A DNA stretch of 22,172 bases from a virus (Duplodnaviria > Heunggongvirae > Uroviricota > Caudoviricetes), in the IMG/VR virus record IMGVR_UViG_2585427761_000022, one strand, 5' to 3'. The position numbers and the translations under genes are program-made. The notes beneath the pieces were generated by a model, which was not told the origin of the DNA, made no database searches, and saw only the letters and a list, made by a program, of their open reading frames with translations. Below are positions 2,036-19,142 of the stretch, piece after piece; positions within the stretch are counted from its first letter, which is position 1; every line of letters starts with the position of its first letter.

Positions 2036-2050
2036 GTCACCTCCCTACTA

Positions 2051-2455: not shown

Positions 2456-2530
2456 ACAAAAACCTTGACAGGTATCTTTTTTGATACCAAAATGATTTCA
2501 CGAGCTATTAGATGATCACAATATACCACT
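2456..2530. promoter_or_regulatory. Divergent lysogenic/lytic switch region with candidate operator: inverted repeat GGTATC-T6-GATACC (2471-2488) abutting a TTGACA -35-like hexamer (2465-2470)
   Basis: 75-bp intergenic region between divergently oriented repressor and early operon; perfect 6-bp inverted repeat with 6-nt spacer. Confidence 0.5.
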
Positions 2531-2737
2531 ATGAAACAAGTTCTTCACGATACCAGATCACGCATTCCGCGTAACACCGCCACAGGTCCAAGACTGGCAC
2601 TTCGGCTGTCCCTCGAGGAGCGAGCCGTCATTGATGAAATGGCAGCTAAAGAACAACGCTCATCCTCTAACATGGCGCGCATGATCTTCCTTCGCGGCCT
2701 AGAGCTAACCCAGAAAGAACAAAACAAATCTTCCTGA
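2531..2737 (+). CDS. Small ribbon-helix-helix-like DNA-binding protein (68 aa), first gene of the early operon
   Basis: Segment LSLEERAVIDEMAAKEQRSSSNMARMIFLRGLE resembles CopG/MobC-type RHH domains; ATG start but no clear RBS. Confidence 0.5.
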   Translation: MKQVLHDTRSRIPRNTATGPRLALRLSLEERAVIDEMAAKEQRSSSNMARMIFLRGLELTQKEQNKSS

Positions 2738-2753
2738 TCAGGAGGCTAGTGGG

Positions 2754-2957
2754 ATGTCAGGTATAACCATCAATATCAATGTGAATGCCCCCTATGTATC
2801 CCTGCAGAAATATGCAGAGATAACAGGTATCCCTCTTAATACATGCAAAAAGATGTTGGCTGACGGTCGAATTATTATCCGACCCAAACGCGCCAAAATG
2901 GAAAAGCCTGAAGTAAACCTTGTGGCGATGTTAAAAGACGCTTTGGCTAACAGCTAA
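2754..2957 (+). CDS. Cox/Apl-like small HTH regulator or excisionase-type protein (67 aa)
   Basis: Strong RBS AGGAGG 9 nt upstream; HTH-like segment YVSLQKYAEITGIPLNTCKKMLADGRI; position equals cox/apl in P2/186. Confidence 0.7.
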   Translation: MSGITININVNAPYVSLQKYAEITGIPLNTCKKMLADGRIIIRPKRAKMEKPEVNLVAMLKDALANS

Positions 2958-2978
2958 AACAATGAACAGAGCACCATC

Positions 2979-3329
2979 ATGAAAAAAAACGCTAATAATC
3001 CATACTCCAAATTTCGTAATGGCGTAGAACGCCATGTACACCACGTCGCTACCAGTGCATCACGTAGTAACAGTCGCTATAACCTGAACGAGACGCACGC
3101 AACACCGGATGGCCACGCTGTAAAACAAATCGGCGAGCATGCCTGGCTGATTGAGAAAGCTGGAATCGTGGTCCACAAATGCCCACGCAATCCGTTTACC
3201 GGAAACCGCATTTTTGCATTGAACTGCGGCGACAATCACTTCGGGCAGGATTTCACATTATACGAAGCACTTCGCACGGTTGATCGTCTGCTTCGCGGGC
3301 AAAGTTTTATTAAACAGGCTGATTTATAA
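2979..3329 (+). CDS. Hypothetical early protein (116 aa)
   Basis: ORF in early operon, co-oriented and tightly packed; weak RBS; no recognisable domain. Confidence 0.55.
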   Translation: MKKNANNPYSKFRNGVERHVHHVATSASRSNSRYNLNETHATPDGHAVKQIGEHAWLIEKAGIVVHKCPRNPFTGNRIFALNCGDNHFGQDFTLYEALRTVDRLLRGQSFIKQADL

Positions 3330-3339
3330 CAGGTGCTTT

Positions 3340-3618
3340 ATGACCAAAGAGCATGCACAAGGTGTATTTATCCGTTTTATTGATTTTCGCGGTGAACTGT
3401 TATTACGCGCATCAGCCATTGACGTAGTTGTTCCATCCGAAAAAAACGCAGCTACTTACGTTTATCTGAACGGTACGCGCCTGACTGTGGAGCTTCCGTA
3501 CCAGACCGTACGAGAAATCATTAGCGAAGCTGAAAAGGCACGTCAGGTTAATGGCGATGAACCCTATATCGAAATTATTTGTATGGATTCAGAAGCTGAA
3601 ATTCAGAAAGCAGATTAA
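3340..3618 (+). CDS. Hypothetical early protein (about 92 aa; internal ATG of the 3280-3618 ORF)
   Basis: ATG at 3340 preceded by AGGTG; upstream part of the track ORF overlaps the preceding gene. Confidence 0.6.
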   Translation: MTKEHAQGVFIRFIDFRGELLLRASAIDVVVPSEKNAATYVYLNGTRLTVELPYQTVREIISEAEKARQVNGDEPYIEIICMDSEAEIQKAD

Positions 3619-3629
3619 AGGGCGTTGTG

Positions 3630-3872
3630 ATGGGCAAAGAATATAAAACTCTCATTAACAAAGCACTTGAGCGTTTTTATTTTCGCTTAAGTGCATCAGG
3701 CGCTCATGCTGAACGTGCGGCCCGTGACTCATTGACCAGAGCAATCCGAAGTCTGTATGACGTGGCTTTTTACGCTGATGATCTGGATGCACTTAACGAA
3801 CTTTCCGAGCTGATCTATGCCGCAGAATGCGGGGAACATATTGAACCGTATAAGCTGGGAAATATCGCATGA
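3630..3872 (+). CDS. Hypothetical early protein (80 aa), predicted helical
   Basis: ATG at 3630 (GTG at 3627 also possible); ORF in operon context. Confidence 0.6.
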   Translation: MGKEYKTLINKALERFYFRLSASGAHAERAARDSLTRAIRSLYDVAFYADDLDALNELSELIYAAECGEHIEPYKLGNIA

Positions 3873-3982
3873 GTATATTTATCTCATGGCTTGTTCTGAT
3901 TATTTCGGTGGTCTGCGCCATTGGGATTATGCGAATTACTAATTCAGTAAAAAAGATTGAACGCTTTTTCACTGAAGAATAA
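3869..3982 (+). CDS. Small hydrophobic peptide (37 aa, MSIFISWLVLIISVVCAIGIMRITNSVKKIERFFTEE), single predicted TM helix; not in the supplied ORF track
   Basis: ATG overlaps the stop of the preceding gene (ATGA coupling); hydrophobic core followed by a charged tail. Confidence 0.4.
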   Translation: MSIFISWLVLIISVVCAIGIMRITNSVKKIERFFTEE

Positions 3983-4068
3983 CCGCGCAAATAAGACCCC
4001 AGGTTAAATAAGAAAATGTGAAAACAATCCGCATTCGCGGAGGTATTCGCACACGCCAAGGAGGCGTA

Positions 4069-4272
4069 ATGGCAATTAAGCATTTTCCCGTCGTTCGTTT
4101 CACCTCCAAAGGACGTGAATACGAAGTTGACGAACGCCTGATTACCACAATCGACAAACACCGTTCAGAAAAGGATGCATATCACATCTATCTCACTGAC
4201 GGCACTTACTTTTGCGCCACCAACGTGGTGCAGGTAAATCTTATCAGACAGGTACAGGAGTCACGCAGATGA
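4069..4272 (+). CDS. Hypothetical early protein (67 aa)
   Basis: Strong RBS AAGGAGG 7 nt upstream of ATG at 4069; the longer GTG-initiated track ORF from 4018 is less likely. Confidence 0.6.
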   Translation: MAIKHFPVVRFTSKGREYEVDERLITTIDKHRSEKDAYHIYLTDGTYFCATNVVQVNLIRQVQESRR

Positions 4273-4514
4273 CCATTCTGGACTACATCGCTGCCAATCC
4301 GGGTTGTAGCGGTGGAGAAATCGCCGCAGCACTGAATACACCAACCACAACCATTAATGCGGAGCTACGCCGTCTCTGGCGCAGCGGTTCAGTCATAAGA
4401 AAAGAGCGCAAAACAGGCGGTCGCTTTTCTTATCAGGTAAACCCGATGCCGTTTGGGTGTAGCAACCCACTAACCCAGATGTTCAACCAGCTACTGAGGG
4501 AAATCAGAGCATGA
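4269..4514 (+). CDS. Small winged-helix-like DNA-binding protein (81 aa)
   Basis: ATGA start/stop overlap with the upstream gene; segment SGGEIAAALNTPTTTINAELRRLWRSGSVIRKE looks like a wHTH. Confidence 0.6.
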   Translation: MTILDYIAANPGCSGGEIAAALNTPTTTINAELRRLWRSGSVIRKERKTGGRFSYQVNPMPFGCSNPLTQMFNQLLREIRA

Positions 4515-4655
4515 GCACCTCCAACTGCCGGAAACCACGTCGGGCTTCAGCAGCTCATCCGGCAGCAAAACAAACTCCATTAATTCCTGTTCCGGGTCTT
4601 TCCTGCACCTTGTGGCGGGAGGCCTTCGCACATCTGTAACAAGAGGATTGCCGCA

Positions 4656-5021
4656 ATGATTCTCGCCAACGACTTTCTTGAATACCTGCTCAACACAGAG
4701 CGTGATCTTGCCGTTCGCGTGCGTGAACGTTATGACATGTACCTGAAATCCCTGCCTGTACCGCAGCTCGCTGACGGAAAGATTGTTATTGATGGTCGCT
4801 ACATGATTGACAGCCACGAGGGAAATTACAGGCTTTACCGCATTGAAGGTGGCACCCCGTCCGTTATTGGCATTTACCAGCGCCCATCCTCTGCAATCGT
4901 CAATGTGATTGCCGACAGCATCCGCATCACACATCGCCATGCCGACACAGAAGACACCGTGCTGGAAATTCAGCGGCTGGCTACAGTCTGCCGCGACACC
5001 CTGAATGGCATGACGAAGTAA
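4656..5021 (+). CDS. Hypothetical early protein (121 aa) immediately upstream of A; possible P2 B-like replication accessory (position only)
   Basis: RBS AAGAGGA about 9 nt upstream of ATG; operon context. Confidence 0.6.
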   Translation: MILANDFLEYLLNTERDLAVRVRERYDMYLKSLPVPQLADGKIVIDGRYMIDSHEGNYRLYRIEGGTPSVIGIYQRPSSAIVNVIADSIRITHRHADTEDTVLEIQRLATVCRDTLNGMTK

Positions 5022-5027
5022 ATCACT

Positions 5028-7685
5028 ATGACGGCAGAGTACATCAGGGACTGGCAACAACCGCGCCACGCAGTGGGGCGTGAAGGAACGGGGATCCCCG
5101 CTCCTGAATCCGCGCTTTCCTCCTGGCTGGATGCCTACCGGGCAGAGAACGAGCGCCGCCAGGAAATGGCTGATGCGGCGTTCTCCGCCACGCCGCTGGG
5201 CAACCTGATTAATAAAAGCCTGGACGCACAGGAAAAACAGGACAAAACAATCACACTGGCAGGAGACGCCAGAAAACAGGCACGCGGCGCGGTAGATGAG
5301 GCCATGGCCTCACTGCGCCTGCTGCCGTCCTATCTGCGCGATCCGCTTATTCGCCACCTCTCCTTCCTGCGCAAAAAACAGGAAGCCGATCGTCAGAAAG
5401 GAAAAAACGCCAGGCAGGCAGAACGCTATGCGCGTGGGACCCTGCGCAAAATATTCGAACGTCTGGAGCGCACCGATCACCGCTGGCTGACATCGGGTTA
5501 TCGCTCCCTTGCCGGACGTGAACGCCTGGACGATTTGCTTTACCTGCCGCAACTCAACAAACACCAGATACAGACGCTGGCCACCATGACGGCGGCGATG
5601 TTCAGCAGCACCTTCGAAAAACTCTGCGATGGTTTTGGCGCGACTGATGGCGAGCTGACCATGGATGTAACGCTGAAGGCGTATCAGATGCTGGCCCGCA
5701 TGGCGTTACACTTACACGCCATGCCTCCGCATTATGACGCACTGACAACAGACAAAGACCGGAGGCACGAACCGGACACAGAACTGCTGCCGGGCGCAAT
5801 CCTTCGCCTGACCTGTGCGGAATGGTGGAAACGCAAACTGTGGCTGTTACGTTGCGAGTGGAGAGAAGAACAACTCCGCGCCGCCTGTCTGGTTTCCAGA
5901 AAAACATCGCCCTATCTGAGCCAGGACGCGTTAAGCGAGTTTCGCGCACAGCGCGAGAAAACACGCGATTTCCTGAAAAGTTTCATGCTGGAAAATGAAG
6001 ACGGGTTCACGATTGATCTCGAGACGGTGTATTACGCGGGAGTAAGTAACCCGGTTCACCGTAAGGCAGAAATGATGGCCACCATGAAGGGGCTGGAACT
6101 TCTGGCCGAAGCCCGTGGCGACAAAGCGGTGTTTCTGACTGTCACCTGCCCGTCAAAATACCACGCCACAACGGAGAACGGTCATCCGAATCCCAAATGG
6201 AACGGGGCCACAATGCGCGACTCCAGCGATTACCTGGTTAACACGTTTTTTGCGGCGGTCCGCAAAAAACTGAACCGCGACGACCTGCGCTGGTATGGCA
6301 TCCGCACGGTGGAGCCTCATCATGACGGCACCGTGCACTGGCATATGATGGTCTTTGCACATCCGGAAGAAATCGACACCATTGTGTCCCATACCCGCGA
6401 TATTGCCATTCAGGAAGACCGCCACGAGCTGGGCAATGATATTACTCCGCGCTTTAAGGTGGAGTATGTCGACGGCTCAAAAGGCACGCCAACCAGCTAC
6501 ATCGCCACCTACATCGGAAAGAACCTGGACAGCCGCGCCGTGGATGGCATCGACCCGAAAACGGACAAGCCACGCGTGGACCACGAAACCGGAAAATCAA
6601 TGGCCGAGAGCGTGGAACGCGCCATCGGCTGGGCGCGTCTTCACCGCGTCCGCCAGTTCCAGTTCTTTGGTATCCCCCCCCGTCAGGTATGGCGTGAACT
6701 CCGCCGCCTTGCCAGTCAGATGGCCCGCAACCCGGAAGGTCCACAACGTCTGGAAAATGACGCAATGGATGCGGTACTCGCTGCCGCTGATGCCGGGTGT
6801 TTTGCCACCTACATTGAGAAACAGGGTGGCGTACTTGTTCCACGCAAAGACTACCTGATTCGCACCGCCTACGACCTCGCAGAAGAGCTGAACGATTACG
6901 GCGAGCAAAGCGTACAGATTTACGGGATCTGGTCGCCACAAATCGGGGAATCTTCCCGCGTGTGCACGCACCCGGATAACTGGAAGCTGGTAAGACGTAA
7001 ACCGGAAGCGGAAGACAGCGCCCGCGAAAATGGTTTTGACCTTCAGGGCGGCCCTGCCGCCCCTTGGACTCGTGGCAATAACTGTCCCCGTGTACAGGAA
7101 ACGGACAACAACGGGACAGAACAGCCGGAAGAACGGCCAGCACCGTGGCCGCAGCTCCCTGACGGCGTTGAAGTGAACGAATGGATGCGCTCACTGAAAC
7201 GGCACGAACGCCGGGCGCTGATGCGTTCGCTTCGTGACAAACAGGCAAAAAACAGCAGTGATGAAGCGCAGAGCTGGACACAGAGCCGCAAACAGCAGCG
7301 GCCTTTGCCTGATAACCACGAATTACTCGCTAAAGAATGGCGGGAGTCTGCTGAATCTCTCGGCCTGCATATCGGTGAACAACAGATGCAGCACCTGTTA
7401 CGGGGCGGCAGTCTGTACGTTGACGGCAGCATCATTGCACCGCAGGGATTTGAAATTGTACGCAAACCGGATACCCGCCTGGACAGCCGAATCACGCAGC
7501 TCTGGCAGCGCCTGAGCCGTAATCATGGCGTAAGCAGCACGGAGATCCGCCATAACCCGGTCGCCAGCTATCTGGCACAGCTGGGGGCATCAGACCCTGA
7601 AGCCGCCGCACGCCTGGCATCGCCCCCATCAGTTGCGGCGGAACGCGGTGCGCAGCCAGCACATCATCACGGGATGCCGCCTTAA
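5028..7685 (+). CDS. A: Replication initiation protein A (rolling-circle HUH endonuclease) of P2-like phages, 885 aa with a long C-terminal extension
   Basis: HUH-like motif GTVHWHMMVF and paired active-site tyrosines in TSYIATYIGK (Y-x3-Y); size and position as P2 gpA. Confidence 0.85.
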   Translation: MTAEYIRDWQQPRHAVGREGTGIPAPESALSSWLDAYRAENERRQEMADAAFSATPLGNLINKSLDAQEKQDKTITLAGDARKQARGAVDEAMASLRLLPSYLRDPLIRHLSFLRKKQEADRQKGKNARQAERYARGTLRKIFERLERTDHRWLTSGYRSLAGRERLDDLLYLPQLNKHQIQTLATMTAAMFSSTFEKLCDGFGATDGELTMDVTLKAYQMLARMALHLHAMPPHYDALTTDKDRRHEPDTELLPGAILRLTCAEWWKRKLWLLRCEWREEQLRAACLVSRKTSPYLSQDALSEFRAQREKTRDFLKSFMLENEDGFTIDLETVYYAGVSNPVHRKAEMMATMKGLELLAEARGDKAVFLTVTCPSKYHATTENGHPNPKWNGATMRDSSDYLVNTFFAAVRKKLNRDDLRWYGIRTVEPHHDGTVHWHMMVFAHPEEIDTIVSHTRDIAIQEDRHELGNDITPRFKVEYVDGSKGTPTSYIATYIGKNLDSRAVDGIDPKTDKPRVDHETGKSMAESVERAIGWARLHRVRQFQFFGIPPRQVWRELRRLASQMARNPEGPQRLENDAMDAVLAAADAGCFATYIEKQGGVLVPRKDYLIRTAYDLAEELNDYGEQSVQIYGIWSPQIGESSRVCTHPDNWKLVRRKPEAEDSARENGFDLQGGPAAPWTRGNNCPRVQETDNNGTEQPEERPAPWPQLPDGVEVNEWMRSLKRHERRALMRSLRDKQAKNSSDEAQSWTQSRKQQRPLPDNHELLAKEWRESAESLGLHIGEQQMQHLLRGGSLYVDGSIIAPQGFEIVRKPDTRLDSRITQLWQRLSRNHGVSSTEIRHNPVASYLAQLGASDPEAAARLASPPSVAAERGAQPAHHHGMPP

Positions 7686-8496
7686 CATTCATGAACTCAT
7701 CCTTTGCGGTGATCTGCTGGAACGGCAAAATTTGCACCCCCTCTTTGCCCCCGTTGGGCGCATGGATGAGCACGTTTTTAAACGCGCCACCACCACGCGC
7801 ACCCTGTAACGTTTCTTTCAGGGAGTCCATGCTTTCGCGGTTTACCTGCGCTGCACCGATGTAGATGATGCACCCGGCGTGGGATCCATTGTCGTAATAC
7901 AGTTTTCTGAACATGTCCGCCGAATGAGACAGGCTGGCCGAGAGTAATGCGCCAAGATATTCCGGCATGCCGTAAATTTCCTGGTTAATGTCCGGATTCA
8001 TCAGGTGGCACACTTTGCCAGGGCGAAACTGAAACGCATCCTTGCCATCCTGCACATACCACCATGATTCAAGATCGCTTCCGCGTCGCATGTATTTCGC
8101 CAGGGCGTGCCGTAATTTAAGCGGTTCGCCGAACATATTGCTTCGAAGCTCAAGGAATGCGTTACCGAACACAAACCAGTCCAGCGCCAGCGCCGAGAAA
8201 TCCTGCCGGGAAAGCAGCGGGTGCGGGATGTAGCACCCGAGCAATACGTTGCGCTTAAAGTAAAGCGCAGACTGATGCCAGGACGTTTGCCGGGCGGCTC
8301 TTGCCAGACCGTACCAGTCCACCGGGGTTTCATACCACCGCCCGTTATCAGCACAGTACATATTGTCCAGCAAATCATGCCCGGTCAGGCGATAAGGACC
8401 ATCAAAAGTGAATGCACTGAGCGACGATTCTTTCCTGAGCGCATCAGCGAGATCAATGCGTGAACTCATGCGCACTTTTTTATTTTTTCTGCTCAT
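7492..8496 (-). CDS. Q: Portal (capsid portal vertex) protein, P2 gpQ-like
   Basis: 334-aa ORF with conserved portal segment AAHRVPPQLMG; ATG overlaps the terminase stop (TGATG coupling); convergent with A. Confidence 0.85.
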   Translation of the reverse strand: MSRKNKKVRMSSRIDLADALRKESSLSAFTFDGPYRLTGHDLLDNMYCADNGRWYETPVDWYGLARAARQTSWHQSALYFKRNVLLGCYIPHPLLSRQDFSALALDWFVFGNAFLELRSNMFGEPLKLRHALAKYMRRGSDLESWWYVQDGKDAFQFRPGKVCHLMNPDINQEIYGMPEYLGALLSASLSHSADMFRKLYYDNGSHAGCIIYIGAAQVNRESMDSLKETLQGARGGGAFKNVLIHAPNGGKEGVQILPFQQITAKDEFMNVKAASRDDVLAAHRVPPQLMGAMPGVRRLQGLMPPAVPDSWRPGYGGSPCCLRHDYGSGAARAA

Positions 8497-10246
8497 CAGA
8501 ACTCCATAACTGTGAAACGCTCGTTTTCTCCTTCGCCGCCAATTGGTTCGTTAATGACAGCAAGCATGGTTGCCCACGCAAGGTCGCCGTGGCTGCTCCC
8601 CCTCGCGCGGTCCGTTTCGTAAGTGATAAAGCCGCCCGGTGTTTTCACCTTACGCACGGCGTTAAAGGCCGCGACCAGCTCGCGTTCGGCGCGATCGTAT
8701 TCCCACCGCCCGGCACGCATTATTTGCAGCATTTTCAGTACAAGCGACCGTTTTGATGACAGCGTGAAGGTGTACGGAATAGCGGCAGGGAAAAACCGTT
8801 TCACTATCTGATAAACAGCCTCCCCGTTCCCGCCCGTCACATCAATGCCGATGTGTTCCACGTTGTAGCGATACGTGAAATCTTCAATGACTCTGGCCTG
8901 TTCTTCAAACTCCAGCCCCTGAACGCGTCGCGTCTCCACCGTTCGAAAACGGCCACCAGGAACAGCCGGAGGAACCACCACGGACACAGCGCCGCTGTCG
9001 CCGTTGCCACTGCTGCCGTTTGCGTCATACCCAATCCATACCGGACGATTCCCCATCGGGCGGGGAGCAAAAGGTTTCCAGTCTTTCCAGTCGTCGTATC
9101 CGTCAACACCGCAGCCAATCAGGATATTCAGGTTAAATGCCGATTCCCCTTCGCGGACAAACTCACACATATAGAGATTGAGGAACTCGTCTTCGGTGTT
9201 TTCATCACGAATTTCGTCGATATCGGTGTGTTTCCAGCCGTGATTAACCACATCTTCCAGCGTGACAATTTGCCGCCACGTCCGGTCAGGGCAGATAAGC
9301 CCGTTATGCAGCGTTTTCCAGTCCACAGAAAAACGCTGGCGTTTATGCGTGGCCTTTTTCTCGTTCCAGCGGTCGCCGTTCCAGTAGGCGTATGCTTCGT
9401 GCGTTTCGGTGGATGGCGTGGAGAAGTAGGTGCGCCGCAATCCGCTGAGGGTTGCCATAGCGCCAGCCACCTTGCGCAGTTCAGCAAAGCGACTGACCCA
9501 GAAAAATTCATCAAAATAAAAATTGCCCGTATAGGACTGCGCCGACGCAGCAGAAGTGCCGAGAAAATGCAGCTCTGCGCCGTTGGAGAGGATGATTTTA
9601 TCGCCCCCTTTCAGCTCCACATCAACTTCAGCCGCAGCCTTCTGAATAATGCTTTTAAACTGGAACGCCTGACGACGCGACGCAGACAAAAAATCTGGTT
9701 ACGCTGGTAAGGTTGCGCCACATCGTCACGCAGCGCCATCAGCAGTGCTTCCTGTGCAAAATACCAGGTCGCGCCAATCTGTCGGGATTTCAGGATCATC
9801 CTGTTACGTATCCCGGCTTCCCTGCAAAGGGTCAGGGAGTCAAACCAGCCCCGCTGATGCCACTCCAGCCTGCTGATGATTTTTTCCCGCAGTGCGGCAA
9901 TCTGTTCCGGCGTGAAATGATTTTTGAGTTTTTTCGCCCGGCCTTTCTTTCCTGTGGCCGTCGCATCCGGCTGGCCATCATGCATTTTTTTAAGCTGCCG
10001 GGTCAGCAGGTCTATTTCCTTAAAGTCACCGCCTGTTTTATTCTGTTTTTCAGTAAGCTAGATGAGGCGCGCATCGATGGACTGCGTGACACGCTGCACG
10101 GGTGGCGTTTCATCCCACTGGTCGCGTTTTTTCCACGCATAAATCGTGTTCGGGTTTATTCCCATCAGACGTGATATTTCTGCGGGCGGATAACCCTGCC
10201 AGTAAAGTTGCCGCGCACGCTGGCGCACAAAAGCGTCCTGAATCAT
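8496..10246 (-). pseudogene. P: Terminase large (ATPase) subunit, P2 gpP-like, disrupted by an in-frame TAG (10058-10060) and a 1-nt frameshift in an A6 tract (9688-9693)
   Basis: Three ORF-track fragments (10058-10246, 9611-9985, 8496-9689) that read as one terminase when joined: N-terminal HTH-like region, Walker A-like KSRQIGATWYFAQEAL, then large C-terminal domain. Confidence 0.7.
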
Positions 10247-10400
10247 TGCTCCCCCTGAGTAATTACAGGAAGATTACCCGCGCGCGAAACCGTTCTCCTT
10301 AACCCCCTGTTCTGGCCGTTTTCTTACAACAAAAGCCCTTTGTATCAGCCTGTTACGCTTTGCCATCATGACTGAAGAACCAGTCAGAGGGGCAAAAACT
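10247..10400. promoter_or_regulatory. Divergent late-promoter region between P (leftward) and O (rightward), expected site of Ogr/Delta-type activator-dependent promoters
   Basis: 154-bp intergenic region between divergent late operons, positionally as P2 P_P/P_O; no canonical TGT-N12-ACA dyad could be confirmed by eye. Confidence 0.4.
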
Positions 10401-11237
10401 ATGGCTAATGAAAAAAAGACATCCCGCAAAAAGTTTCGCGTGGCTGTCTCCGGATCAACTGTTGATGGCCGCGAAATCAGCCAGGTACATCTGCGTGAAG
10501 CCGCCGAGAACTTCAACCCGGATGTTTACGCTGCCCGCGTGAACGTTGAGCACTATCTCTCGCCATGCCCGTCAAGCGAATTTTCCGCAATGGGCGATGT
10601 CACCGCGCTGAGTACGGAAGATATTACGGAAGGCCCGCTGGCCGGACGTACTGCGCTGTATGCAGAAATCGAACCGACCGAGCGCATGAAGCAGCTTGTC
10701 GCTGACGGCAAGAAAATCTATTCCAGTATCGAACTGCACCCGCAGTTCTCCGTTAACGGGCGCGCCTATCTGGTCGGGCTGGCGATGACCGACACCCCGG
10801 CAAGCCTGGGCACTGAGCGCCTGAAATTCACGGCACAGCAACGTCAGGCGGTGATGACGTTCAACAGTATCCAGGGTGAAGCACCGCTTATCTCCGAAGC
10901 CATCGAGTCTGAAATCATCGAAATGGCAGAACAACGCCAGGAAGAAGGCACCCAGTGGTTTAACCGCGTAATGGGGATTATTGGTCGTGGCCGCAAAGCG
11001 GATGACGCCAGTTTCTCCCGAATTCAGGAAGCGGTGGAAGGCGTTGCAACGTCACAGGCCGACATTATCGACCGTTTTAATGTGCTGGAAACCCGCCATC
11101 AGCAGGACCGCCAGAAAATCACGTCACTGACCACAGAGCTGACAGCATTGAAGGAAAAACTGCGCACGCAGGACGGCGATCCGCAGAACCGCTTCACCGC
11201 AACGGGCGCAGCCTCCGACCAGCTGGCTGACTTCTGA
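10401..11237 (+). CDS. O: Capsid scaffolding protein, P2 gpO-like
   Basis: ATG at 10401 with GAGG upstream; about 279 aa; position between terminase and major capsid genes; acidic and coiled-coil-rich C-terminal half. Confidence 0.8.
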   Translation: MANEKKTSRKKFRVAVSGSTVDGREISQVHLREAAENFNPDVYAARVNVEHYLSPCPSSEFSAMGDVTALSTEDITEGPLAGRTALYAEIEPTERMKQLVADGKKIYSSIELHPQFSVNGRAYLVGLAMTDTPASLGTERLKFTAQQRQAVMTFNSIQGEAPLISEAIESEIIEMAEQRQEEGTQWFNRVMGIIGRGRKADDASFSRIQEAVEGVATSQADIIDRFNVLETRHQQDRQKITSLTTELTALKEKLRTQDGDPQNRFTATGAASDQLADF

Positions 11238-11260
11238 TAAGACAAAGGAGCAAATTTTTT

Positions 11261-12313
11261 ATGAATCTGGTGATGTCAGATATTACCCGCAACAAGCTGG
11301 GTTGCTATATGGCGCAGCAGGCGTCGCTTAACAATATCCCGGTATCTGCACTGGTATCGCGATTTACCGTGGAACCCGCGGTGCAGCAGCGTTTTGAAAA
11401 CGCCTCAAAGGAAAGTACCGAATTTACGAAAAGAATTAACGTGATCGGCGTGACCGACCAGAAAGGCGAAAAAATCCTCCTGGACACCACCGGGCCAATT
11501 GCGCGCACGAATAGCAGTTATGACGGCATCAAACGCCGTAACCCGAATAACGTGCTCGATATGAAGTCTCGTCAGTACCAGTGCGAACAGGTGAACTACG
11601 ATACCTTTATTTCGTACCCACAGCTTGATACCTGGGCAGCCCACAGCGATTTTCAGTCCCGTATCAGTACACAGATCGCCCGGCAGGTAGCGCTTGATCG
11701 CATCATGATTGGCTTTAACGGCACATCCCACGCCTACGAGTCTGATTTTCACACCAACAAGCTGCTTCAGGACGTTAACGTGGGCTGGCTGGAGCACATC
11801 AGAACCGATGCCAGCGAGCGCGTAATGAATGACGTGACGCTGACCTCCCGCAACATGGACAACACTGTGGCGCACGCGGGTAAGTATGCGAATGCCGATG
11901 CTCTGGTACAGGATGCGCGCTCATCCCTGCTGGATGAATGGCACAAGGAAGCTGACGACCTCGCGGTGATTATGGGGCGCAACCTGTTTAACTCGCTGCG
12001 TCTGCCCGTGCTGAACAGCATCAGCGGCCAGAATCCCAATGCGGAATTACTTGCCGGGCAGCTCATCCTGTCATCGCGCACCATTGGCGGGCTGGGCGTG
12101 TTCCTTGCGCCGTTCTTCCCGGATGCAACGATGCTTATCACCTCGTTCAACAACCTGTCGATTTACTGGCAGAAAGGTTCAATGCGTCGCCTGATGAAAG
12201 ACGAGCCGGAATACAACCGCATCGCCACCTACCAGTCCATCAATGACGCTTATGTCGTTGAAGACTATGGCAAGTGCGCGATGATCACTGGCCTGAAGTT
12301 CGCCGACAGCTAA
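11261..12313 (+). CDS. N: Major capsid protein, P2 gpN-like
   Basis: 350 aa; RBS AAGGAG; recalled similarity to P2 gpN (FTVEP..., GFNGT, LSIYWQ, YVVEDY blocks). Confidence 0.9.
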   Translation: MNLVMSDITRNKLGCYMAQQASLNNIPVSALVSRFTVEPAVQQRFENASKESTEFTKRINVIGVTDQKGEKILLDTTGPIARTNSSYDGIKRRNPNNVLDMKSRQYQCEQVNYDTFISYPQLDTWAAHSDFQSRISTQIARQVALDRIMIGFNGTSHAYESDFHTNKLLQDVNVGWLEHIRTDASERVMNDVTLTSRNMDNTVAHAGKYANADALVQDARSSLLDEWHKEADDLAVIMGRNLFNSLRLPVLNSISGQNPNAELLAGQLILSSRTIGGLGVFLAPFFPDATMLITSFNNLSIYWQKGSMRRLMKDEPEYNRIATYQSINDAYVVEDYGKCAMITGLKFADS

Positions 12314-12322
12314 TCAACTCAC

Positions 12323-12341
12323 GGCGGGCATCATGCCCGCC
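12323..12341 (+). other. Stem-loop (8-bp stem GGCGGGCA/TGCCCGCC, 3-nt loop) just downstream of N; possible attenuator, no U-tract
   Basis: Perfect inverted repeat 10 nt after the N stop codon. Confidence 0.35.
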
Positions 12342-12358
12342 TGTAACGGAGAGAAAAA

Positions 12359-13159
12359 ATGATTACTCCTGCACAACAACACTGGCAGAACGTGATGGCA
12401 CAGCGCGCAGGCCGGGCGAATGAAGGTGTGGACCACGCCGCGCGTACCGCGCATGAAGAGGTGCTGTATCGTCTGCGTCTGGCACAGGCCAGGCTAAAGG
12501 GCGTACAGGCCAGAAGCGCGAAAGCCGCCATCAAAAAAGAGTTGTTGCCGGACTTTTCCGGCTGGATTGAGGGAACGCTGGAGACTGACGGCGGGCAACA
12601 GGACGAAGTAATTGCCACGCTGATGGTGTGGGCGATTGACTGCGGCGATCTTCCGCTGGCGCTGCGTATTGGTGCATATGTGGTCCGTCACAACCTCATC
12701 ATGCCGGATAACTTTGGCCGTACTGCTGCCACGGTACTGACCGAAGAAATCTGCAACCCGGTACTGACGCAGGCCGGGACGGATGCCGACGCGGATTTAT
12801 CCGCCTTTATCGAACCACTGGACACACTTTGGGAAATTGTCGCCAACCAGGACATGCCGGACGAAGTGCGCGCCAAATTATGCAAGGCGTGTGCCTTTGC
12901 CCGTCGTGGCCTGACCGATGCAGACAACATGGCCTCATCACTGAAGCTGCTGCGCGAAGCGATGCACCTGAACCCGAACGCAGGTGTGAAACGCGAGATT
13001 GCAACCCTTTCCCGCGCCCTGAAAAAAGCCGATTCCGCAGCCGCACCAGAAGACGCCAGCGCACAGCAGACGCAGGACGAAAGCAGCAAAAGTAAAAAGA
13101 CAACGCAGAAGCCTGCAACACGAAAAACCACCGCGTCGCAGAAGGCGAAGCGCGGTTAA
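12359..13159 (+). CDS. M: Terminase small (endonuclease) subunit, P2 gpM-like
   Basis: 266 aa; RBS GGAGAG; position after N; basic Lys/Arg-rich C-terminal tail. Confidence 0.8.
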   Translation: MITPAQQHWQNVMAQRAGRANEGVDHAARTAHEEVLYRLRLAQARLKGVQARSAKAAIKKELLPDFSGWIEGTLETDGGQQDEVIATLMVWAIDCGDLPLALRIGAYVVRHNLIMPDNFGRTAATVLTEEICNPVLTQAGTDADADLSAFIEPLDTLWEIVANQDMPDEVRAKLCKACAFARRGLTDADNMASSLKLLREAMHLNPNAGVKREIATLSRALKKADSAAAPEDASAQQTQDESSKSKKTTQKPATRKTTASQKAKRG

Positions 13160-13174
13160 CGACTGACCCCGTCA

Positions 13175-13248
13175 GCGGGCGGCGTGCGCGGTGTTCCGGT
13201 TTGACTCCGTGACCGTTTACACCGCGCACCCACCGCCCGATTTTTTTT
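13175..13248 (+). terminator. Candidate Rho-independent terminator or attenuator: long imperfect inverted repeat (13175-13194 / 13219-13239) followed by T8 (13241-13248)
   Basis: GCGGGCGGCGTGCGCGGTGT ... ACACCGCGCACCCACCGCCCG then TTTTTTTT, between M and L. Confidence 0.5.
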
Positions 13249-13262
13249 CAGGAGTGAACTCC

Positions 13263-13757
13263 ATGAGTATGGTTGCCAGAACTGAACCAGGACCCGCAGA
13301 GGACGACATCACCGATACCGATGATGGCGACACTCGCATTTCAGCAGGTGCATTCTGGCCGGATATTGTGCTGCGCGAGCTGCGTCTGGCGGTACGACTG
13401 CCGGGCCGCGTGACCACCTCCCGCCTGCTGCATACCGCCACTGGGGCCGTGGCTCACGTTACCCGCGAACTGGAAGCGTGGCAGCAGGAACAGCAGGCGG
13501 CTGGCCATCAGACGCTGGCCGATGTTCCGGCACCCGTAATTAACGGAGAAAGCGTCAATCTCTGGCACTGGCGCAATGCTGTTTATACCGCCACACGTGC
13601 CCTGATTCTGGAGCGTTACCGCGATGCGGACACAACGGACAAGGGCGATCGCCGGGCGGACGCACTGGATATACAGACATCGGATTTGTGGCGCGATGTG
13701 AGCTGGGCCATCTCTGACATTCTGTGCCGCCCGCGAATCTTTGCGGAGTTGTGCTGA
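13263..13757 (+). CDS. L: Head completion/stabilisation protein, P2 gpL-like
   Basis: About 164 aa from ATG at 13263 with RBS AGGAG; position after M; stop overlaps the X start. Confidence 0.75.
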   Translation: MSMVARTEPGPAEDDITDTDDGDTRISAGAFWPDIVLRELRLAVRLPGRVTTSRLLHTATGAVAHVTRELEAWQQEQQAAGHQTLADVPAPVINGESVNLWHWRNAVYTATRALILERYRDADTTDKGDRRADALDIQTSDLWRDVSWAISDILCRPRIFAELC

Positions 13758-13957
13758 TGAAAGTGAAGGCACTGGAAGACGACACCGTGGATTCGCTCTG
13801 TTTCCGGTACTACGGCACGACGCAGGGCGTCACCGAAAAGGTGCTGGATGCCAACCCCGGACTCTGTCAGCAGGTATTTCTGGACGCCGGGCAGGAAGTG
13901 GAGATGCCGGAGCCGGAGAAGAAGAAACGAGAAATGATTCAGTTGTGGGGGGAGTAG
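13757..13957 (+). CDS. X: Tail protein X-like small protein (66 aa)
   Basis: ATGA overlap with the L stop; size and position as P2 gpX. Confidence 0.7.
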   Translation: MKVKALEDDTVDSLCFRYYGTTQGVTEKVLDANPGLCQQVFLDAGQEVEMPEPEKKKREMIQLWGE

Positions 13958-13959
13958 CA

Positions 13960-14283
13960 GTGAGCACCATTCAAACAGGGATCACAGAGCAGGTTATTGC
14001 GTGGCTCTTTGACCACCTGCCAACGGTGTATGCAGTAGGCGCGGCGGTCAGCATTTCAGCGCTGATGAGTCTTTATGACGGACGAACACTGGTTCAGACC
14101 GTAACGGGATCGCTGGCGTGCGGCGTTCTTGCCATGGCCGTGGCCGGGTCGTTGCGCTTCTTCGGGTTTCCTGAAGATGCCGTAACGTTTATCGGCGCAT
14201 CAATCGGTTTTATGGGGGCAGAGAAAGTACGCGACAAGGTTATTGCGGCCTTTAATCGCAGGGTGAAGGAGAAGGACGAATGA
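13960..14283 (+). CDS. Holin (about 107 aa, GTG start, multiple TM helices)
   Basis: RBS GGGGGAG before GTG at 13960; hydrophobic segments VYAVGAAVSISALMSL, VTGSLACGVLAMAVAGSL, VTFIGASIGFMGA; directly upstream of the endolysin. Confidence 0.65.
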   Translation: MSTIQTGITEQVIAWLFDHLPTVYAVGAAVSISALMSLYDGRTLVQTVTGSLACGVLAMAVAGSLRFFGFPEDAVTFIGASIGFMGAEKVRDKVIAAFNRRVKEKDE

Positions 14284-14672
14284 GCAACACATTTAAATTC
14301 AGCAGCCGGAGCGAAAAGAATTTGCAGGGCGTAAATCCTGATCTGGTGAAAGTGACCCGACGGGCACTGGAAATTTCGGAAGTGGATTTTGGTATCACCG
14401 AAGGATTGCGCAGCCGTTACCGCCAGAAGCAACTTGTGGCCACGGGTAAGAGCCATACCATAAACAGCCGCCACCTTACGGGGCATGCCGTGGATGTTGT
14501 GGCTTATGTCGGCAGCCAGGTGTCATGGGAATGGCCGCTGTACGAAAAAATCGCAGCAGCATTCAGACAGGCCAGCCAGGAACTGAATATTCCGGTGGAA
14601 TGGGGCGGCGACTGGAAGACCCTGAAAGACGGACCGCATTTTCAGTTACCACACGGAGCCTATCCGGCATGA
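14280..14672 (+). CDS. Endolysin, peptidase M15-type (zinc D-Ala-D-Ala carboxypeptidase / L-Ala-D-Glu endopeptidase family), not a P2 K-type lysozyme
   Basis: 130 aa; motif SRHLTGHAVDV typical of the VanY/M15 metal-binding site; between holin and spanins; ATGA coupling. Confidence 0.75.
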   Translation: MSNTFKFSSRSEKNLQGVNPDLVKVTRRALEISEVDFGITEGLRSRYRQKQLVATGKSHTINSRHLTGHAVDVVAYVGSQVSWEWPLYEKIAAAFRQASQELNIPVEWGGDWKTLKDGPHFQLPHGAYPA

Positions 14673-15142
14673 AGCTCTGGCCCACGCTTGGCGTCGCTTT
14701 CCTTCTGATTGCCGCATGGGGAACATCCATGCGTCTGTCGTGGTCGCTGGGCCGGGAGAACGCCAGAAACGAAGCGCAGACCAGCACCCTGAAAAGTACC
14801 GTCGACACACTGAATATCATCAGCGCCGGGGTACAGGATATGCAGCAGGTGCTGGCTCAACTCCGCGCGGAAAATCAGCAACGCAATCAGGACGGAGAGG
14901 TAAGACGTGAACAGCTACGCAACGATATTGCAAAAGATGAATGCGCCCACGCTTTGCCTGACGCTCGTTTTACTGACAGGTTGCGCAGGCACGCAGAACG
15001 CGCCACGGCCAGCGCCGTCAATCCGGCTTATACCGCAGACGCTGACCATGCCGGTAACGCCTCCCCCCTTCCCTGCCCCACCCACATGGGGAAACCTCGG
15101 AATATGGGGCGACCGCCTTCTGGATGCACTGGAAACCTGTAA
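14669..15142 (+). CDS. i-spanin (Rz / LysB-like), N-terminal TM plus coiled coil
   Basis: ATG at 14669 overlaps the endolysin stop; TM segment LGVAFLLIAAWGT followed by a Gln/Arg-rich helical region. Confidence 0.7.
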   Translation: MKLWPTLGVAFLLIAAWGTSMRLSWSLGRENARNEAQTSTLKSTVDTLNIISAGVQDMQQVLAQLRAENQQRNQDGEVRREQLRNDIAKDECAHALPDARFTDRLRRHAERATASAVNPAYTADADHAGNASPLPCPTHMGKPRNMGRPPSGCTGNL

Positions 15143-15218
15143 CGCGGATAAACGGGCCATTGCTGAACTGGATAAGAGAATAGCCGAACTGACACACCAG
15201 ACGGGAGTAACACAATGA
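14907..15218 (+). CDS. o-spanin (Rz1 / LysC-like) outer-membrane lipoprotein, starting inside the i-spanin gene in the +1 frame and extending past it
   Basis: Lipobox LLTGC; Pro-rich mature region; GTG at 14907 with RBS GGAGAGG (ATG at 14937 is an alternative start); classic overlapped spanin architecture. Confidence 0.6.
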   Translation: MNSYATILQKMNAPTLCLTLVLLTGCAGTQNAPRPAPSIRLIPQTLTMPVTPPPFPAPPTWGNLGIWGDRLLDALETCNADKRAIAELDKRIAELTHQTGVTQ

Positions 15219-17095
15219 CCAGTAAGAACTTTGCACTGATTACAGCCATGACACAGGCTGAACTGACCCGGAAAGTGAATGAATATCTTGCGAAGGGGTG
15301 GCATCTTCAGGGGGACACACGGGTAGCTTACGAGCCCGGCACCCCGTGGTATCTCATGCAGGCCATGGTGGCCGATGGTGCCACCGAGACGCCCTCTGAG
15401 CCATTACCAAACAACAAGACGCCGGAATGGTACTACGTGGTTGTGCTTGCCGGGCAGTCCAACGGCATGGCTTACGGTGAAGGGCTTCCGTTACCGGATT
15501 CTTACGATGCTCCGGATCCGCGCATTAAACAGCTTGCGCGCCGCAGTACGGTAACCCCGGGTGGAGAGGGTTGTACGTATAACGACATCATCCCGGCTGA
15601 CCACTGTCTGCATGATGTGCAGGATATGAGTACGCTGAATCATCCGAAGGCGGACCTGAGCAAAGGTCAGTACGGCTGTGTGGGACAGGGACTTCATATT
15701 GCCAAAAAACTACTCCCGTATATCCCGAATAACGCGGGGATCCTGCTGGTACCATGCTGTCGTGGTGGTTCGGCATTCACTCAGGGCGCGGAGGGAACAT
15801 TCAGTACGACCACGGGGGCCAGCCAGGATTCGGCGCGCTGGGGTGCGGGTAAGCCGTTATATCAGGACCTGATCGCACGCACCAAAGCGGCATTACAGAA
15901 GAACCCGAAAAATGTGTTGCTGGCGGTGTGCTGGATGCAGGGCGAATTTGACATGAGCGCTGCCACCTACGCACAGCAACCGGACCTGTTCACGGCCATG
16001 CTGAAGCAGTTCCGTACTGACCTTTCCGGATTTAACGCGCAGTGCCATGGCGGCAGTGCTGCAGTTATACCGTGGATTTGTGGCGACACGACGTATTACT
16101 GGAAAAACACATACGGCACACAGTATGACTCCGTCTACGGCGCGTACAAAAACAGGGAGAGCGACAACGTTTTCTTTGTGCCGTTCATGACCGACGGTAA
16201 CGGCAACAACACGCCCACCAACTTACCGGCAGAAGACCCGGATATTGCTGATGCAGGTTATTACGGCGCGCAATCCCGTAGTAATGGTAATTGGGTATCG
16301 TCAAATCGTCCGACACATTTCAGTTCATGGGCGCGCAGGGGCATTATTTCGGATCGCCTGGCAACCGCTATTCTGAACGCAGTTGGTCGAACCAGCGCCT
16401 TCATCAGCGGTACCGCACCGGAAATCAAACCCTCGCCCGGCGGCGACACTCCATCGGGGCCGTCTGATGGTGACACATCCGTTCGTACAGTCTCCCTGCT
16501 GCCGACAGCCGGAGAGGCTGCTGCGCAGGGCTGGACCATCACCGGCGGCAGTGTTGCGCTGGAAGATGGTGTGTTTAAGGTTACCAAGCAGAGCAATAAA
16601 ACTTGGTCCCTGATGCATCCGGTGGATGACGCAGTCTCCCTGCTGACACGGGGTGGCAGACTGAGCTGTAAGTTTCGACTGTCAGGCGCACTGACCAACA
16701 ACCAGTTCGGTCTGGGAATTTATCTGTATACCGATGTAGCGTTACCTGACGTCGTGGCGATGACCGGGACTGGTAACCCGTTCCTGATGTCGTTCTTCAC
16801 CCAGACCACAGACGGCAAACTGAATCTGATGCATCACAAGAAAGCCGGAAACACAAAGTTGGGTGAGTTCGGGAATTACAGTAACGACTGGCAGACGCTG
16901 GAGCTGGTGTTCACCGCCGGCAGTGCCACGGTTACTCCGAAACTGAATGGAGTGGCTGGCCCGGCATTCCAGGTCATAAAAGACAGTCTGACACTGGGGC
17001 TGAATGCGCTGACGTTAACTGATATCACTAAAAATGCCGCGTACGGCGTCGATATCGGCAGCCTGGTGCTGGAAATCAATAATCCCGCAGTATAA
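15215..17095 (+). CDS. NanS-p-like sialate (9-O-acetyl) esterase moron: N-terminal DUF1737-like domain, SASA/SGNH-type esterase domain, C-terminal putative carbohydrate-binding domain
   Basis: 626 aa; N-terminus FALITAMTQAELTRKVNEYLAKGWHLQG (DUF1737-like); catalytic-type motif VVLAGQSNGMAYGEG; ATG overlaps the o-spanin stop; no equivalent gene in P2. Confidence 0.7.
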   Translation: MTSKNFALITAMTQAELTRKVNEYLAKGWHLQGDTRVAYEPGTPWYLMQAMVADGATETPSEPLPNNKTPEWYYVVVLAGQSNGMAYGEGLPLPDSYDAPDPRIKQLARRSTVTPGGEGCTYNDIIPADHCLHDVQDMSTLNHPKADLSKGQYGCVGQGLHIAKKLLPYIPNNAGILLVPCCRGGSAFTQGAEGTFSTTTGASQDSARWGAGKPLYQDLIARTKAALQKNPKNVLLAVCWMQGEFDMSAATYAQQPDLFTAMLKQFRTDLSGFNAQCHGGSAAVIPWICGDTTYYWKNTYGTQYDSVYGAYKNRESDNVFFVPFMTDGNGNNTPTNLPAEDPDIADAGYYGAQSRSNGNWVSSNRPTHFSSWARRGIISDRLATAILNAVGRTSAFISGTAPEIKPSPGGDTPSGPSDGDTSVRTVSLLPTAGEAAAQGWTITGGSVALEDGVFKVTKQSNKTWSLMHPVDDAVSLLTRGGRLSCKFRLSGALTNNQFGLGIYLYTDVALPDVVAMTGTGNPFLMSFFTQTTDGKLNLMHHKKAGNTKLGEFGNYSNDWQTLELVFTAGSATVTPKLNGVAGPAFQVIKDSLTLGLNALTLTDITKNAAYGVDIGSLVLEINNPAV

Positions 17096-17118
17096 GGAAG
17101 AGCAGGAGAGCAAAACAG

Positions 17119-19139: not shown

Positions 19140-19142
19140 ATC

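What the first reader, a model, noticed from the sequence alone, without database searches (positions are those of the whole stretch)
9686..9698. Frameshift in a homopolymer tract (A6 on + strand / U6 in mRNA) within the terminase gene
The N-terminal frame reads ...AQPYQRNQIF and then turns Arg-rich and unprotein-like (CLRRVVRRSS...), while the -1 frame continues as LSASRRQAFQFKSIIQKAAAEVDVEL..., which is plausible terminase sequence. The two frames overlap exactly at the U6 run (mRNA CAG AUU UUU UUG UCU). One extra U would restore a continuous ...RNQIFLSAS... protein, so a 1-nt deletion in an ancestral T7/A7 tract is most likely. The alternative is -1 ribosomal slippage on the heptamer A-UUU-UUU-G. 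Together with the amber codon this gives two independent lesions in the same essential gene.
Basis: seen in the sequence. Interest (0 to 1): 0.55.

Follow-up and report, generated by a model that had tools for sequence, protein, structure and literature searches.

The report
Frameshifted terminase in decaying prophage
The terminase (DNA-packaging) gene of a P2-family prophage has lost one T from a run of seven, a genuine inherited mutation in a virus remnant that a 3-kb deletion had already damaged, so this is ordinary gene decay and not programmed frameshifting.

Summary
The minus-strand large-terminase gene (window 8496-10246) changes reading frame at a T6 run (A6 on the + strand, 9688-9693). 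Inserting one T restores a 583-aa protein. That protein is identical to an intact E. coli prophage terminase (WP_000613804.1) at every residue except the upstream amber codon (Q63 to TAG, 10058-10060).

All 1110 complete E. coli genome records carrying this segment differ from the T6 version, and the best of them by a single gap. The T7 46-mer occurs in 60 metagenome contigs and 2 species-representative genomes; the T6 46-mer occurs in none. Phage P2 encodes the same NQIFLSAS peptide with only T5.

T6 is not an assembly error. Separate assemblies share it (SRR1186637, ERR294601, GCA_001285965.1, an ENA metagenome), and they form a nested series:
- a ~2.97-kb deletion alone, which truncates the portal and replication genes and removes the interval where cos is expected;
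- the deletion plus T6;
- the deletion plus T6 plus the amber codon.

The site has no canonical slippery heptamer in register. The downstream RNA folds no better than shuffled sequence (z = -0.03). This is routine pseudogenisation of a cryptic P88-like (Xuanwuvirus) prophage, of low interest.

The parts
9688..9693 (-). T6 run (A6 on the + strand), the site of a 1-nt deletion from an ancestral T7. The reading frame of the large terminase gene shifts here, between codons Phe186 and Leu187.
   Evidence: (the only indel in the gene versus L001).
10061..10246 (-). Terminase codons 1-62, the N-terminal gpP-like helix-turn-helix (Pfam Terminase_5).
   Evidence: PF06056, E = 4.9e-28.
10058..10060 (-). 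Amber codon TAG replacing Gln63 (CAG in relatives). This is a second, later lesion.
   Evidence: mismatch at 10060; 0 of 1084 records match exactly; Q63*; L067 and L068 still carry G on the + strand, i.e. CAG.
9689..10057 (-). Terminase codons 64-186 in the original frame, including the start of the ATPase domain (ILKSRQIGAT, Walker A region; Terminase_6N profile positions 1-34).
9611..9688 (-). Out-of-frame tail (CLRRVVRRSSLKALFRRLRLKLMWS plus stop) read in the N-terminal frame after the deletion. It is not native protein sequence.
8496..9689 (-). Terminase codons 187-583 plus stop in the -1 frame: the rest of the ATPase domain (Walker B YFDEFFW) and the RNaseH-like nuclease domain.
   Evidence: Terminase_6N profile 34-211, E = 1.3e-36; Terminase_6C, E = 2.2e-32.
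7611..7621 (.). Junction of a ~2.97-kb deletion at an imperfect short direct repeat (GCCTGGCATC / GCCCGGCATC in the intact relative). It predates both terminase lesions.
   Evidence: junction sequences; no complete E. coli genome spans it; L067 has the deletion with an intact terminase.
7492..8496 (-). Portal gene (gpQ-like) truncated by the deletion. About 295 native codons are followed by about 39 foreign codons read from the antisense of the replication gene, and about 53 native C-terminal codons are lost.
   Evidence: Phage_portal match ends at residue 293.
5028..7685 (+). Replication endonuclease gene (gpA-like) that has lost its last 229 nt. It is fused to the antisense of the portal gene and gives an 885-aa ORF in place of 940 aa.
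   Evidence: the intact gene is 2823 nt; Phage_GPA, E = 3.6e-131.

Best explanation
This is a loss-of-function frameshift. One T was deleted from a T7 run (codons Ile185-Phe186-Leu187, ATT TTT TTG) in the large terminase gene of a P88-like (Xuanwuvirus, P2-family) prophage integrated next to yecA in an E. coli-type chromosome. The likely cause is replication slippage. The mutation arose in a lineage whose prophage already carried a ~3-kb deletion. That deletion cut off the 3' ends of the portal and replication-endonuclease genes and removed the interval between them, where the cos packaging site is expected. The terminase gene was probably no longer under selection, so it drifted: first T7 to T6, then a C-to-T change that made Gln63 an amber codon. 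The frameshift splits the ATPase domain just after the Walker A region, so neither fragment is expected to work. Shown here: the ancestral state, the inheritance of the mutations and their order. Inferred: replication slippage as the cause, relaxed selection, loss of cos and loss of function.
For: (1) Against the closest intact relative (E. coli 2013C-3342), the gene differs only by the missing A/T at 9688, the change at 10060 and two synonymous changes. The repaired protein equals WP_000613804.1 apart from Q63*.
(2) T7 is universal outside this lineage. All 1110 complete E. coli records with the 80-nt segment fall below 99% identity to the T6 query, and the best differ by one gap. The T7 46-mer is in 60 metagenome contigs and 2 species-representative genomes, while the T6 46-mer is in none. 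Phages P88 and Shae_phiSM annotate one 1752-nt gene.
(3) P2 gpP aligns colinearly across the site (46% identity) with the same NQIFLSAS peptide encoded as ATT TTT CTG. The peptide is conserved and the T run is not.
(4) The mutation is real and inherited. L069 (SRR1186637) is 100% identical to the window over 12,658 nt. L070 (ERR294601) and L071 (GCA_001285965.1) differ by 6-7 and 2 SNPs and share the deletion, T6 and the amber codon.
(5) The states are nested. L067 has the deletion only. L068 has the deletion and T6 but CAG, plus its own frameshift in gpO. The window clade has all three lesions.
(6) Pfam Terminase_6N is split at profile position 34.
(7) There is no frameshift stimulator. The 98 nt downstream fold at z = -0.03 against shuffles.
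Against: No reads were available for the window itself, so its tract length rests on identity with independent assemblies. Loss of function was not measured. A P-site tRNA-Phe slipping -1 on the U run, followed by reading of UUG, would recreate the wild-type Ile-Phe-Leu, so trace full-length protein cannot be excluded in strains without the amber codon (the L068 type). That the deletion removed cos rests on P2-family synteny and on the start of one linear phage record. The P2 cos consensus was not found in the deleted interval of the intact relative.
Confidence: 0.95

Rival explanations
1. Programmed -1 ribosomal frameshifting or transcriptional slippage at the U6/T6 run normally produces a full-length terminase, so the two-ORF arrangement is a functional design.
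For: A -1 slip of tRNA-Phe on the U run followed by UUG (Leu) would give exactly the wild-type ...NQIFLSAS... (sequence). Recoding in phage terminase genes has been proposed elsewhere, for example bypassing in Streptomyces phage Hau3 (PMC5009743).
Against: The 0-frame is AUU UUU UGU, so no X_XXY_YYZ heptamer is in register, and tRNA-Cys on UGU cannot re-pair on UUG. No Shine-Dalgarno-like element is visible upstream in the sequence. The downstream RNA folds no better than shuffles (z = -0.03). The two-ORF state is absent from 1110 E. coli records, 60 metagenome contigs and the isolated phages. P2 has T5 here. T6 occurs only inside a lineage whose prophage already carried the 3-kb deletion, and that lineage then gained an upstream amber codon. 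From general knowledge, a six-base run is short for appreciable RNA-polymerase slippage.
Confidence: 0.02
2. The T6 run is a homopolymer sequencing or assembly error, and the real genome has T7 and an otherwise continuous gene.
For: Homopolymer indels are a common assembly artefact. Some related phage records are visibly riddled with them, for example phage 503458 with three terminase fragments and four portal fragments.
Against: T6 recurs in assemblies from different runs and projects that differ from each other by SNPs: SRR1186637, ERR294601, GCA_001285965.1, and an ENA metagenome scaffold with 6 further similar places. It is phylogenetically nested with the amber codon and the deletion. Over ~19 kb compared with L001, the window has no other homopolymer indel that disrupts one of its own genes. 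The one at 19048 lies where L001's gpW is annotated as frameshifted, while the window ORF is intact.
Confidence: 0.02
3. The T run is a phase-variable contingency tract that switches terminase, and so phage production, on and off by slipped-strand mispairing.
For: The mutation lies in a homopolymer, the substrate for such switching.
Against: There is no length polymorphism in the population. T7 is found everywhere outside one clonal lineage, and T6 is fixed within it across isolates that have since diverged by SNPs. From general knowledge, seven bases is short for a contingency locus. Reversion would not rescue the prophage, given the amber codon and the deletion.
Confidence: 0.01

Closest known systems
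Large terminase (gpP-type ATPase/nuclease subunit) of P88-like phages (Xuanwuvirus, Peduoviridae), e.g. Escherichia phage P88 YP_009113067.1 and E. coli prophage protein WP_000613804.1
   Same: 97.5-99.8% nucleotide identity over the whole gene and its flanks. Same domain order: Terminase_5, Terminase_6N, Terminase_6C. Same divergent P-Q / O-N-M gene order. The repaired protein is identical to WP_000613804.1 except for Q63*.
   Different: The window copy has T6 in place of T7 and TAG in place of CAG at codon 63, so it is a pseudogene. The adjacent portal gene is truncated.
Phage P2 gpP (NP_046758.1)
   Same: 46% protein identity and colinear across the frameshift site. The ILKSRQIGAT and NQIFLSAS motifs are identical. 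The gene lies next to Q, with cos just beyond Q in P2.
   Different: P2 encodes Ile-Phe-Leu as ATT TTT CTG (T5), so it lacks the T7 run that makes the P88-type gene prone to this indel.
Cryptic or defective prophages of enterobacteria that decay through deletions, nonsense mutations and frameshifts
   Same: Stepwise accumulation of inactivating lesions in morphogenesis and replication genes, while the rest of the prophage stays near-identical to active phages.
   Different: None of substance. This copy is very young: apart from the lesions, it shows about 0.05% divergence from L067, which carries the deletion but an intact terminase.
Programmed -1 frameshifting on U-rich heptamers in phage genes, e.g. 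the tail-chaperone E/E' pair of P2-like phages (recalled from general knowledge, not tested here)
   Same: A U-rich run followed by G.
   Different: Here the run is out of register for tandem slippage and has no stimulatory structure. The split is not conserved and arose recently from an in-frame T7.

Membership tests
P2-family large terminase (gpP-like) | N-terminal gpP-type HTH domain (Pfam PF06056, Terminase_5) | tested here: met
   residues 6-62 of the first fragment, E = 4.9e-28, above the gathering score.
P2-family large terminase (gpP-like) | ATPase domain (PF03237, Terminase_6N) followed by an RNaseH-like nuclease domain (PF17289, Terminase_6C) | tested here: met
   both domains are present, but Terminase_6N is split between two frames at profile position 34.
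P2-family large terminase (gpP-like) | A single uninterrupted ORF of about 583-590 codons | tested here: not met
   interrupted by TAG at codon 63 and by a -1 frame change after codon 186. The window copy is a pseudogene of this family.
P2-family large terminase (gpP-like) | Synteny: P upstream of portal Q on one strand, divergent from the scaffold-capsid-small terminase genes (O-N-M) | tested here: met
Programmed -1 ribosomal frameshift site | Slippery heptamer X_XXY_YYZ in register with the 0 frame | tested here: not met
   The 0-frame codons are AUU UUU UGU. The A-site codon UGU cannot re-pair in the -1 frame, so only single-tRNA P-site slippage is conceivable.
Programmed -1 ribosomal frameshift site | Downstream stimulatory RNA structure (or an upstream SD-like element) | tested here: not met
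   MFE -25 kcal/mol against a shuffle mean of -24.9, z = -0.03. No GGAGG-like motif is seen in the 25 nt upstream.
Programmed -1 ribosomal frameshift site | Conservation of the slip site and the two-frame arrangement among homologues | tested here: not met
   homologues have an in-frame T7 (or T5 in P2) and one ORF.
Programmed -1 ribosomal frameshift site | Detectable trans-frame protein product | not testable with these tools
   This needs a reporter assay or mass spectrometry.
Defective (cryptic) prophage | Inactivating lesions in several essential phage functions relative to active relatives | tested here: met
   the 3-kb deletion truncates the portal and gpA genes, and the terminase gene carries a frameshift and an amber codon.
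Defective (cryptic) prophage | Inability to produce plaques or particles on induction | not testable with these tools
   This needs an induction experiment.

The most novel reading that the evidence does not exclude
The T6 run might permit low-level -1 P-site slippage, or RNA-polymerase slippage, that recreates the exact wild-type Ile-Phe-Leu junction. Strains with T6 but no amber codon (L068 type) would then still make traces of full-length terminase. In an amber-suppressing (Gln-inserting) background the window's gene could do the same. This would be a leaky 'pseudo-pseudogene' and not a selected recoding signal.
Probability: 0.03. Interest if true: 0.25.

Novelty: already known. Interest (0 to 1): 0.07.

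Why it matters
It matters mainly for annotation. The three terminase fragments (62, 124 and ~374-397 aa) should be annotated as one pseudogene, and the prophage as defective. The nested series of public assemblies (deletion, then T6, then amber) is a clean small example of how quickly a prophage decays once it can no longer spread. The lesions could serve as lineage markers for the host clone. The finding has no bearing on mechanisms of recoding.

Tried and rejected
- Programmed frameshifting: rejected on heptamer register, the absence of downstream structure and the lack of conservation.
- Assembly error: rejected because independent assemblies that differ by SNPs share T6.
- Phase variation: rejected because tract length is not polymorphic.
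- P2/186 cos consensus (GGCGWGGCGGGGAAAGCA, up to 3 mismatches): it did not turn up in the deleted interval of the intact relative. The single 3-mismatch hit lies inside gpA and is at chance level. Loss of cos therefore remains an inference from P2 synteny and from the start of the linear P88_4B11 record, which maps inside the deleted interval.
- Source organism: literature searches for the run and assembly accessions found nothing. The flank only shows an E. coli-type yecA locus.
- My first DNA alignment used wrong coordinates for three reference loci. Only its rows for the window and L067-L070 are valid. The tract was re-extracted correctly.

Full report
**What is in the sequence**

The + strand reads ACAAAAAATCTGG at 9686-9698, with A6 at 9688-9693. 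The gene lies on the minus strand. From the ATG at 10246 the frame reads MIQDAF...SIDARLI and then TAG at 10058-10060. The same frame continues LTEKQNK...ILKSRQIGATWYFAQEALLMALRDDVAQPYQRNQIF. It then becomes CLRRVVRRSSLKALFRRLRLKLMWS and stops at 9611. The -1 frame reads FLSASRRQAFQFKSIIQK... from the T run down to the stop at 8496.

One detail needs fixing. The real 0-frame is CAG AUU UUU UGU CUG. A 6-nt homopolymer is not unusual here, since one search lists 35 runs of 6 or more in the window. The feature worth attention is the frame switch at this one.

**What the gene is**

The three fragments carry these Pfam domains:
- Terminase_5 (gpP-like HTH, E = 4.9e-28);
- the first 34 profile positions of Terminase_6N;
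- Terminase_6N positions 34-211 plus Terminase_6C (E = 1.3e-36 and 2.2e-32).

The frameshift therefore cuts the ATPase domain just after the Walker A region (ILKSRQIGAT) and before Walker B (YFDEFFW). The neighbours are a portal gene downstream on the same strand and scaffold, capsid and small terminase genes on the other strand. This is the P2-family P-Q / O-N-M arrangement.

At the DNA level the region is 97.5-98.8% identical to P88-like phages (Xuanwuvirus, Peduoviridae). It is up to 99.8% identical to prophages in 1121 of 5426 complete E. coli genomes. A near-identical contig (L071) shows the prophage integrase next to yecA of an E. coli-type chromosome.

**Ancestral state of the tract**

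Against the closest intact relative (E. coli 2013C-3342, L001), the terminase gene differs in four places:
- one missing A/T in the run at 9688;
- the base at 10060, which makes the TAG;
- two synonymous substitutions, at 9636 and 9941.

Inserting one T gives a 583-aa protein identical to WP_000613804.1 at every residue except Q63*.

An 80-nt query centred on the T6 run matched 1110 complete E. coli records. None reached 99% identity, and the best differ by a single gap. The exact T6 46-mer is absent from the species-representative genomes and from the metagenome collection. The T7 46-mer is present in 2 and 60 stretches respectively.

Of the 70 loci held, 67 have T7. The three with T6 belong to the window's own lineage. 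Phages P88 and Shae_phiSM annotate a single 1752-nt terminase gene.

Phage P2 gpP aligns colinearly across the site at 46% identity and has the same NQIFLSAS peptide. It encodes Ile-Phe-Leu as ATT TTT CTG, a T5 run. Selection therefore acts on the peptide, and the T run is a by-product of codon choice.

**Real mutation or assembly error**

I looked up the exact 885-aa fused replication protein and the 124-aa middle terminase fragment in public assemblies. Compared with the window, they give a nested series:

| Locus | Source | Differences from window | ~3-kb deletion | Tract | Codon 63 |
|---|---|---|---|---|---|
| L067 | SRR21910924 | 5 substitutions plus the tract and codon-63 states, over 12,658 nt | yes | T7 | CAG (583-aa gene intact) |
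| L068 | ENA metagenome scaffold, plus 6 similar places | 5 substitutions, codon 63, and its own 1-nt deletion in gpO | yes | T6 | CAG |
| L069 | SRR1186637 | none over 12,658 nt | yes | T6 | TAG |
| L070/L072 | ERR294601 | 6-7 SNPs | yes | T6 | TAG |
| L071 | GCA_001285965.1, CYDF01000027.1 | 2 SNPs in 19,985 nt | yes | T6 | TAG |

These assemblies come from different sequencing runs and differ from one another by substitutions. T6 is therefore an inherited allele and not a homopolymer miscall. The order of events is the deletion first, then T7 to T6, then Gln63 to amber.

The amber codon is private to this lineage. None of 1084 E. coli records matches the 81-nt segment exactly.

**The earlier deletion**

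Window 1394-7621 and 7611-20349 align to L001 segments about 2.97 kb apart. The junction lies in an imperfect 10-nt direct repeat, GCCTGGCATC / GCCCGGCATC. No complete E. coli genome spans the junction.

The deletion removes the following:
- the last 161 nt of the portal gene;
- the intergenic region beyond it;
- two hypothetical genes;
- a partitioning/stability gene and parM;
- the last 229 nt of the replication endonuclease gene.

Two artificial ORF tails result. The portal ORF (7492-8496) has about 295 native codons followed by about 39 foreign ones. The gpA ORF (5028-7685) is 885 aa in place of 940.

In P2, cos lies just beyond the 3' end of Q. The first base of the linear P88_4B11 record maps about 400 nt beyond the portal stop, inside the deleted interval, and that stretch has no counterpart in the window. 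Loss of cos is therefore likely but inferred. The P2 cos consensus itself was not found there.

The rest of the prophage looks intact by ORF length and domain content. That covers the integrase, the regulatory region, and the capsid, lysis, tail and baseplate genes.

**Mechanism**

The best explanation is ordinary pseudogenisation. A 7-nt homopolymer is a natural hotspot for replication slippage. Once the prophage carried the deletion, the terminase gene was probably no longer under selection, so a 1-nt loss could persist. A C-to-T nonsense mutation followed. A sister lineage independently gained a frameshift in the scaffold gene, which is what relaxed selection predicts.

Shown here: the ancestral T7, the inheritance of the mutations and their order. 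Inferred: replication slippage as the cause, relaxed selection, loss of cos and loss of function.

**Rival explanations**

*Programmed -1 frameshifting or transcriptional slippage.* A -1 slip of tRNA-Phe on the U run followed by UUG would recreate the wild-type junction. The evidence against it is stronger:
- the 0-frame (AUU UUU UGU) offers no X_XXY_YYZ heptamer in register;
- no SD-like element is visible upstream in the sequence;
- the 98 nt downstream fold no better than shuffles (z = -0.03);
- the two-frame arrangement is absent from every relative outside this defective lineage;
- an upstream amber codon would block the product in any case.

Recoding has been proposed for other phage terminase genes, such as Streptomyces phage Hau3 (PMC5009743). 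That is not evidence for it here.

*Sequencing error.* Excluded by the independent assemblies described above.

*Phase variation.* Excluded by the lack of tract-length polymorphism.

**Verdict**

The main addition is that a larger lesion had already damaged the prophage. The feature is a routine pseudogene lesion in a young cryptic P88-like prophage. Novelty: already known. Interest: low.

Noticed in passing
window 7611-7621 (junction); ORFs 5028-7685 (+) and 7492-8496 (-): A ~2.97-kb deletion relative to intact relatives fuses a 3'-truncated replication endonuclease gene with a 3'-truncated portal gene, so the two ORFs overlap antisense. It removes the par genes and the interval where cos is expected. 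It predates the terminase lesions.
   Followed up: yes
window 10058-10060 (-): Amber codon replacing Gln63 of the terminase (CAG to TAG). It is private to this lineage and arose after the frameshift. A Gln-inserting amber suppressor would restore the wild-type residue.
   Followed up: yes
window 21152-21767 (+), inside the tail-fibre gene that starts near 20644 and runs off the window end: A tandem repeat of 132 nt (44 aa) in 4.7 copies at 95% identity, with the motif ...QKGIVQLSSATNSDSETLAATPKAVKAAYDLANGKYTAQDATTA.... Copy number may vary among relatives.
   Followed up: partly
window 15215-17095 (+): A 626-aa ORF with DUF1737 (weak), SASA and DUF6645 Pfam hits sits between the lysis genes and the tail genes. 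It may be a cargo gene and is shared with intact relatives.
   Followed up: no
window 1008-1355 and 1385-2035 (-): Two small ORFs lie between the integrase and the helix-turn-helix regulator gene at 2051-2455: a YebY/DUF2511-like protein and a Flk_N-domain membrane protein. They may be lysogeny-expressed cargo genes.
   Followed up: no
L001 1211-1541 (E. coli 2013C-3342) versus window 18789-19139: The reference prophage used as the 'intact' comparator has its own frameshift, an extra G in the gpW/gp25 baseplate gene that RefSeq annotates as frameshifted. The window's copy of that gene is an intact 116-aa ORF.
   Followed up: partly
L068 near position 10923 (window equivalent 10950): The sister lineage with the deletion and T6 but no amber codon carries an independent 1-nt deletion that splits the scaffold gene gpO into 189-aa and 88-aa ORFs.
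   Followed up: partly
L005 (NZ_JBQPOM010000071.1, 'Vagococcus sp. WN89Y', 226-kb contig): A genome labelled as a Gram-positive Vagococcus carries an exact 46-nt match to the enterobacterial P88-type terminase (T7 allele). This suggests contamination or mislabelling of that assembly.
   Followed up: no
L003 (Escherichia phage 503458, NC_049341.1): This RefSeq phage record annotates the terminase as three CDS and the portal as four CDS, although the tract examined here is T7. The record probably holds many indel errors and is unsuitable as a reference.
   Followed up: no
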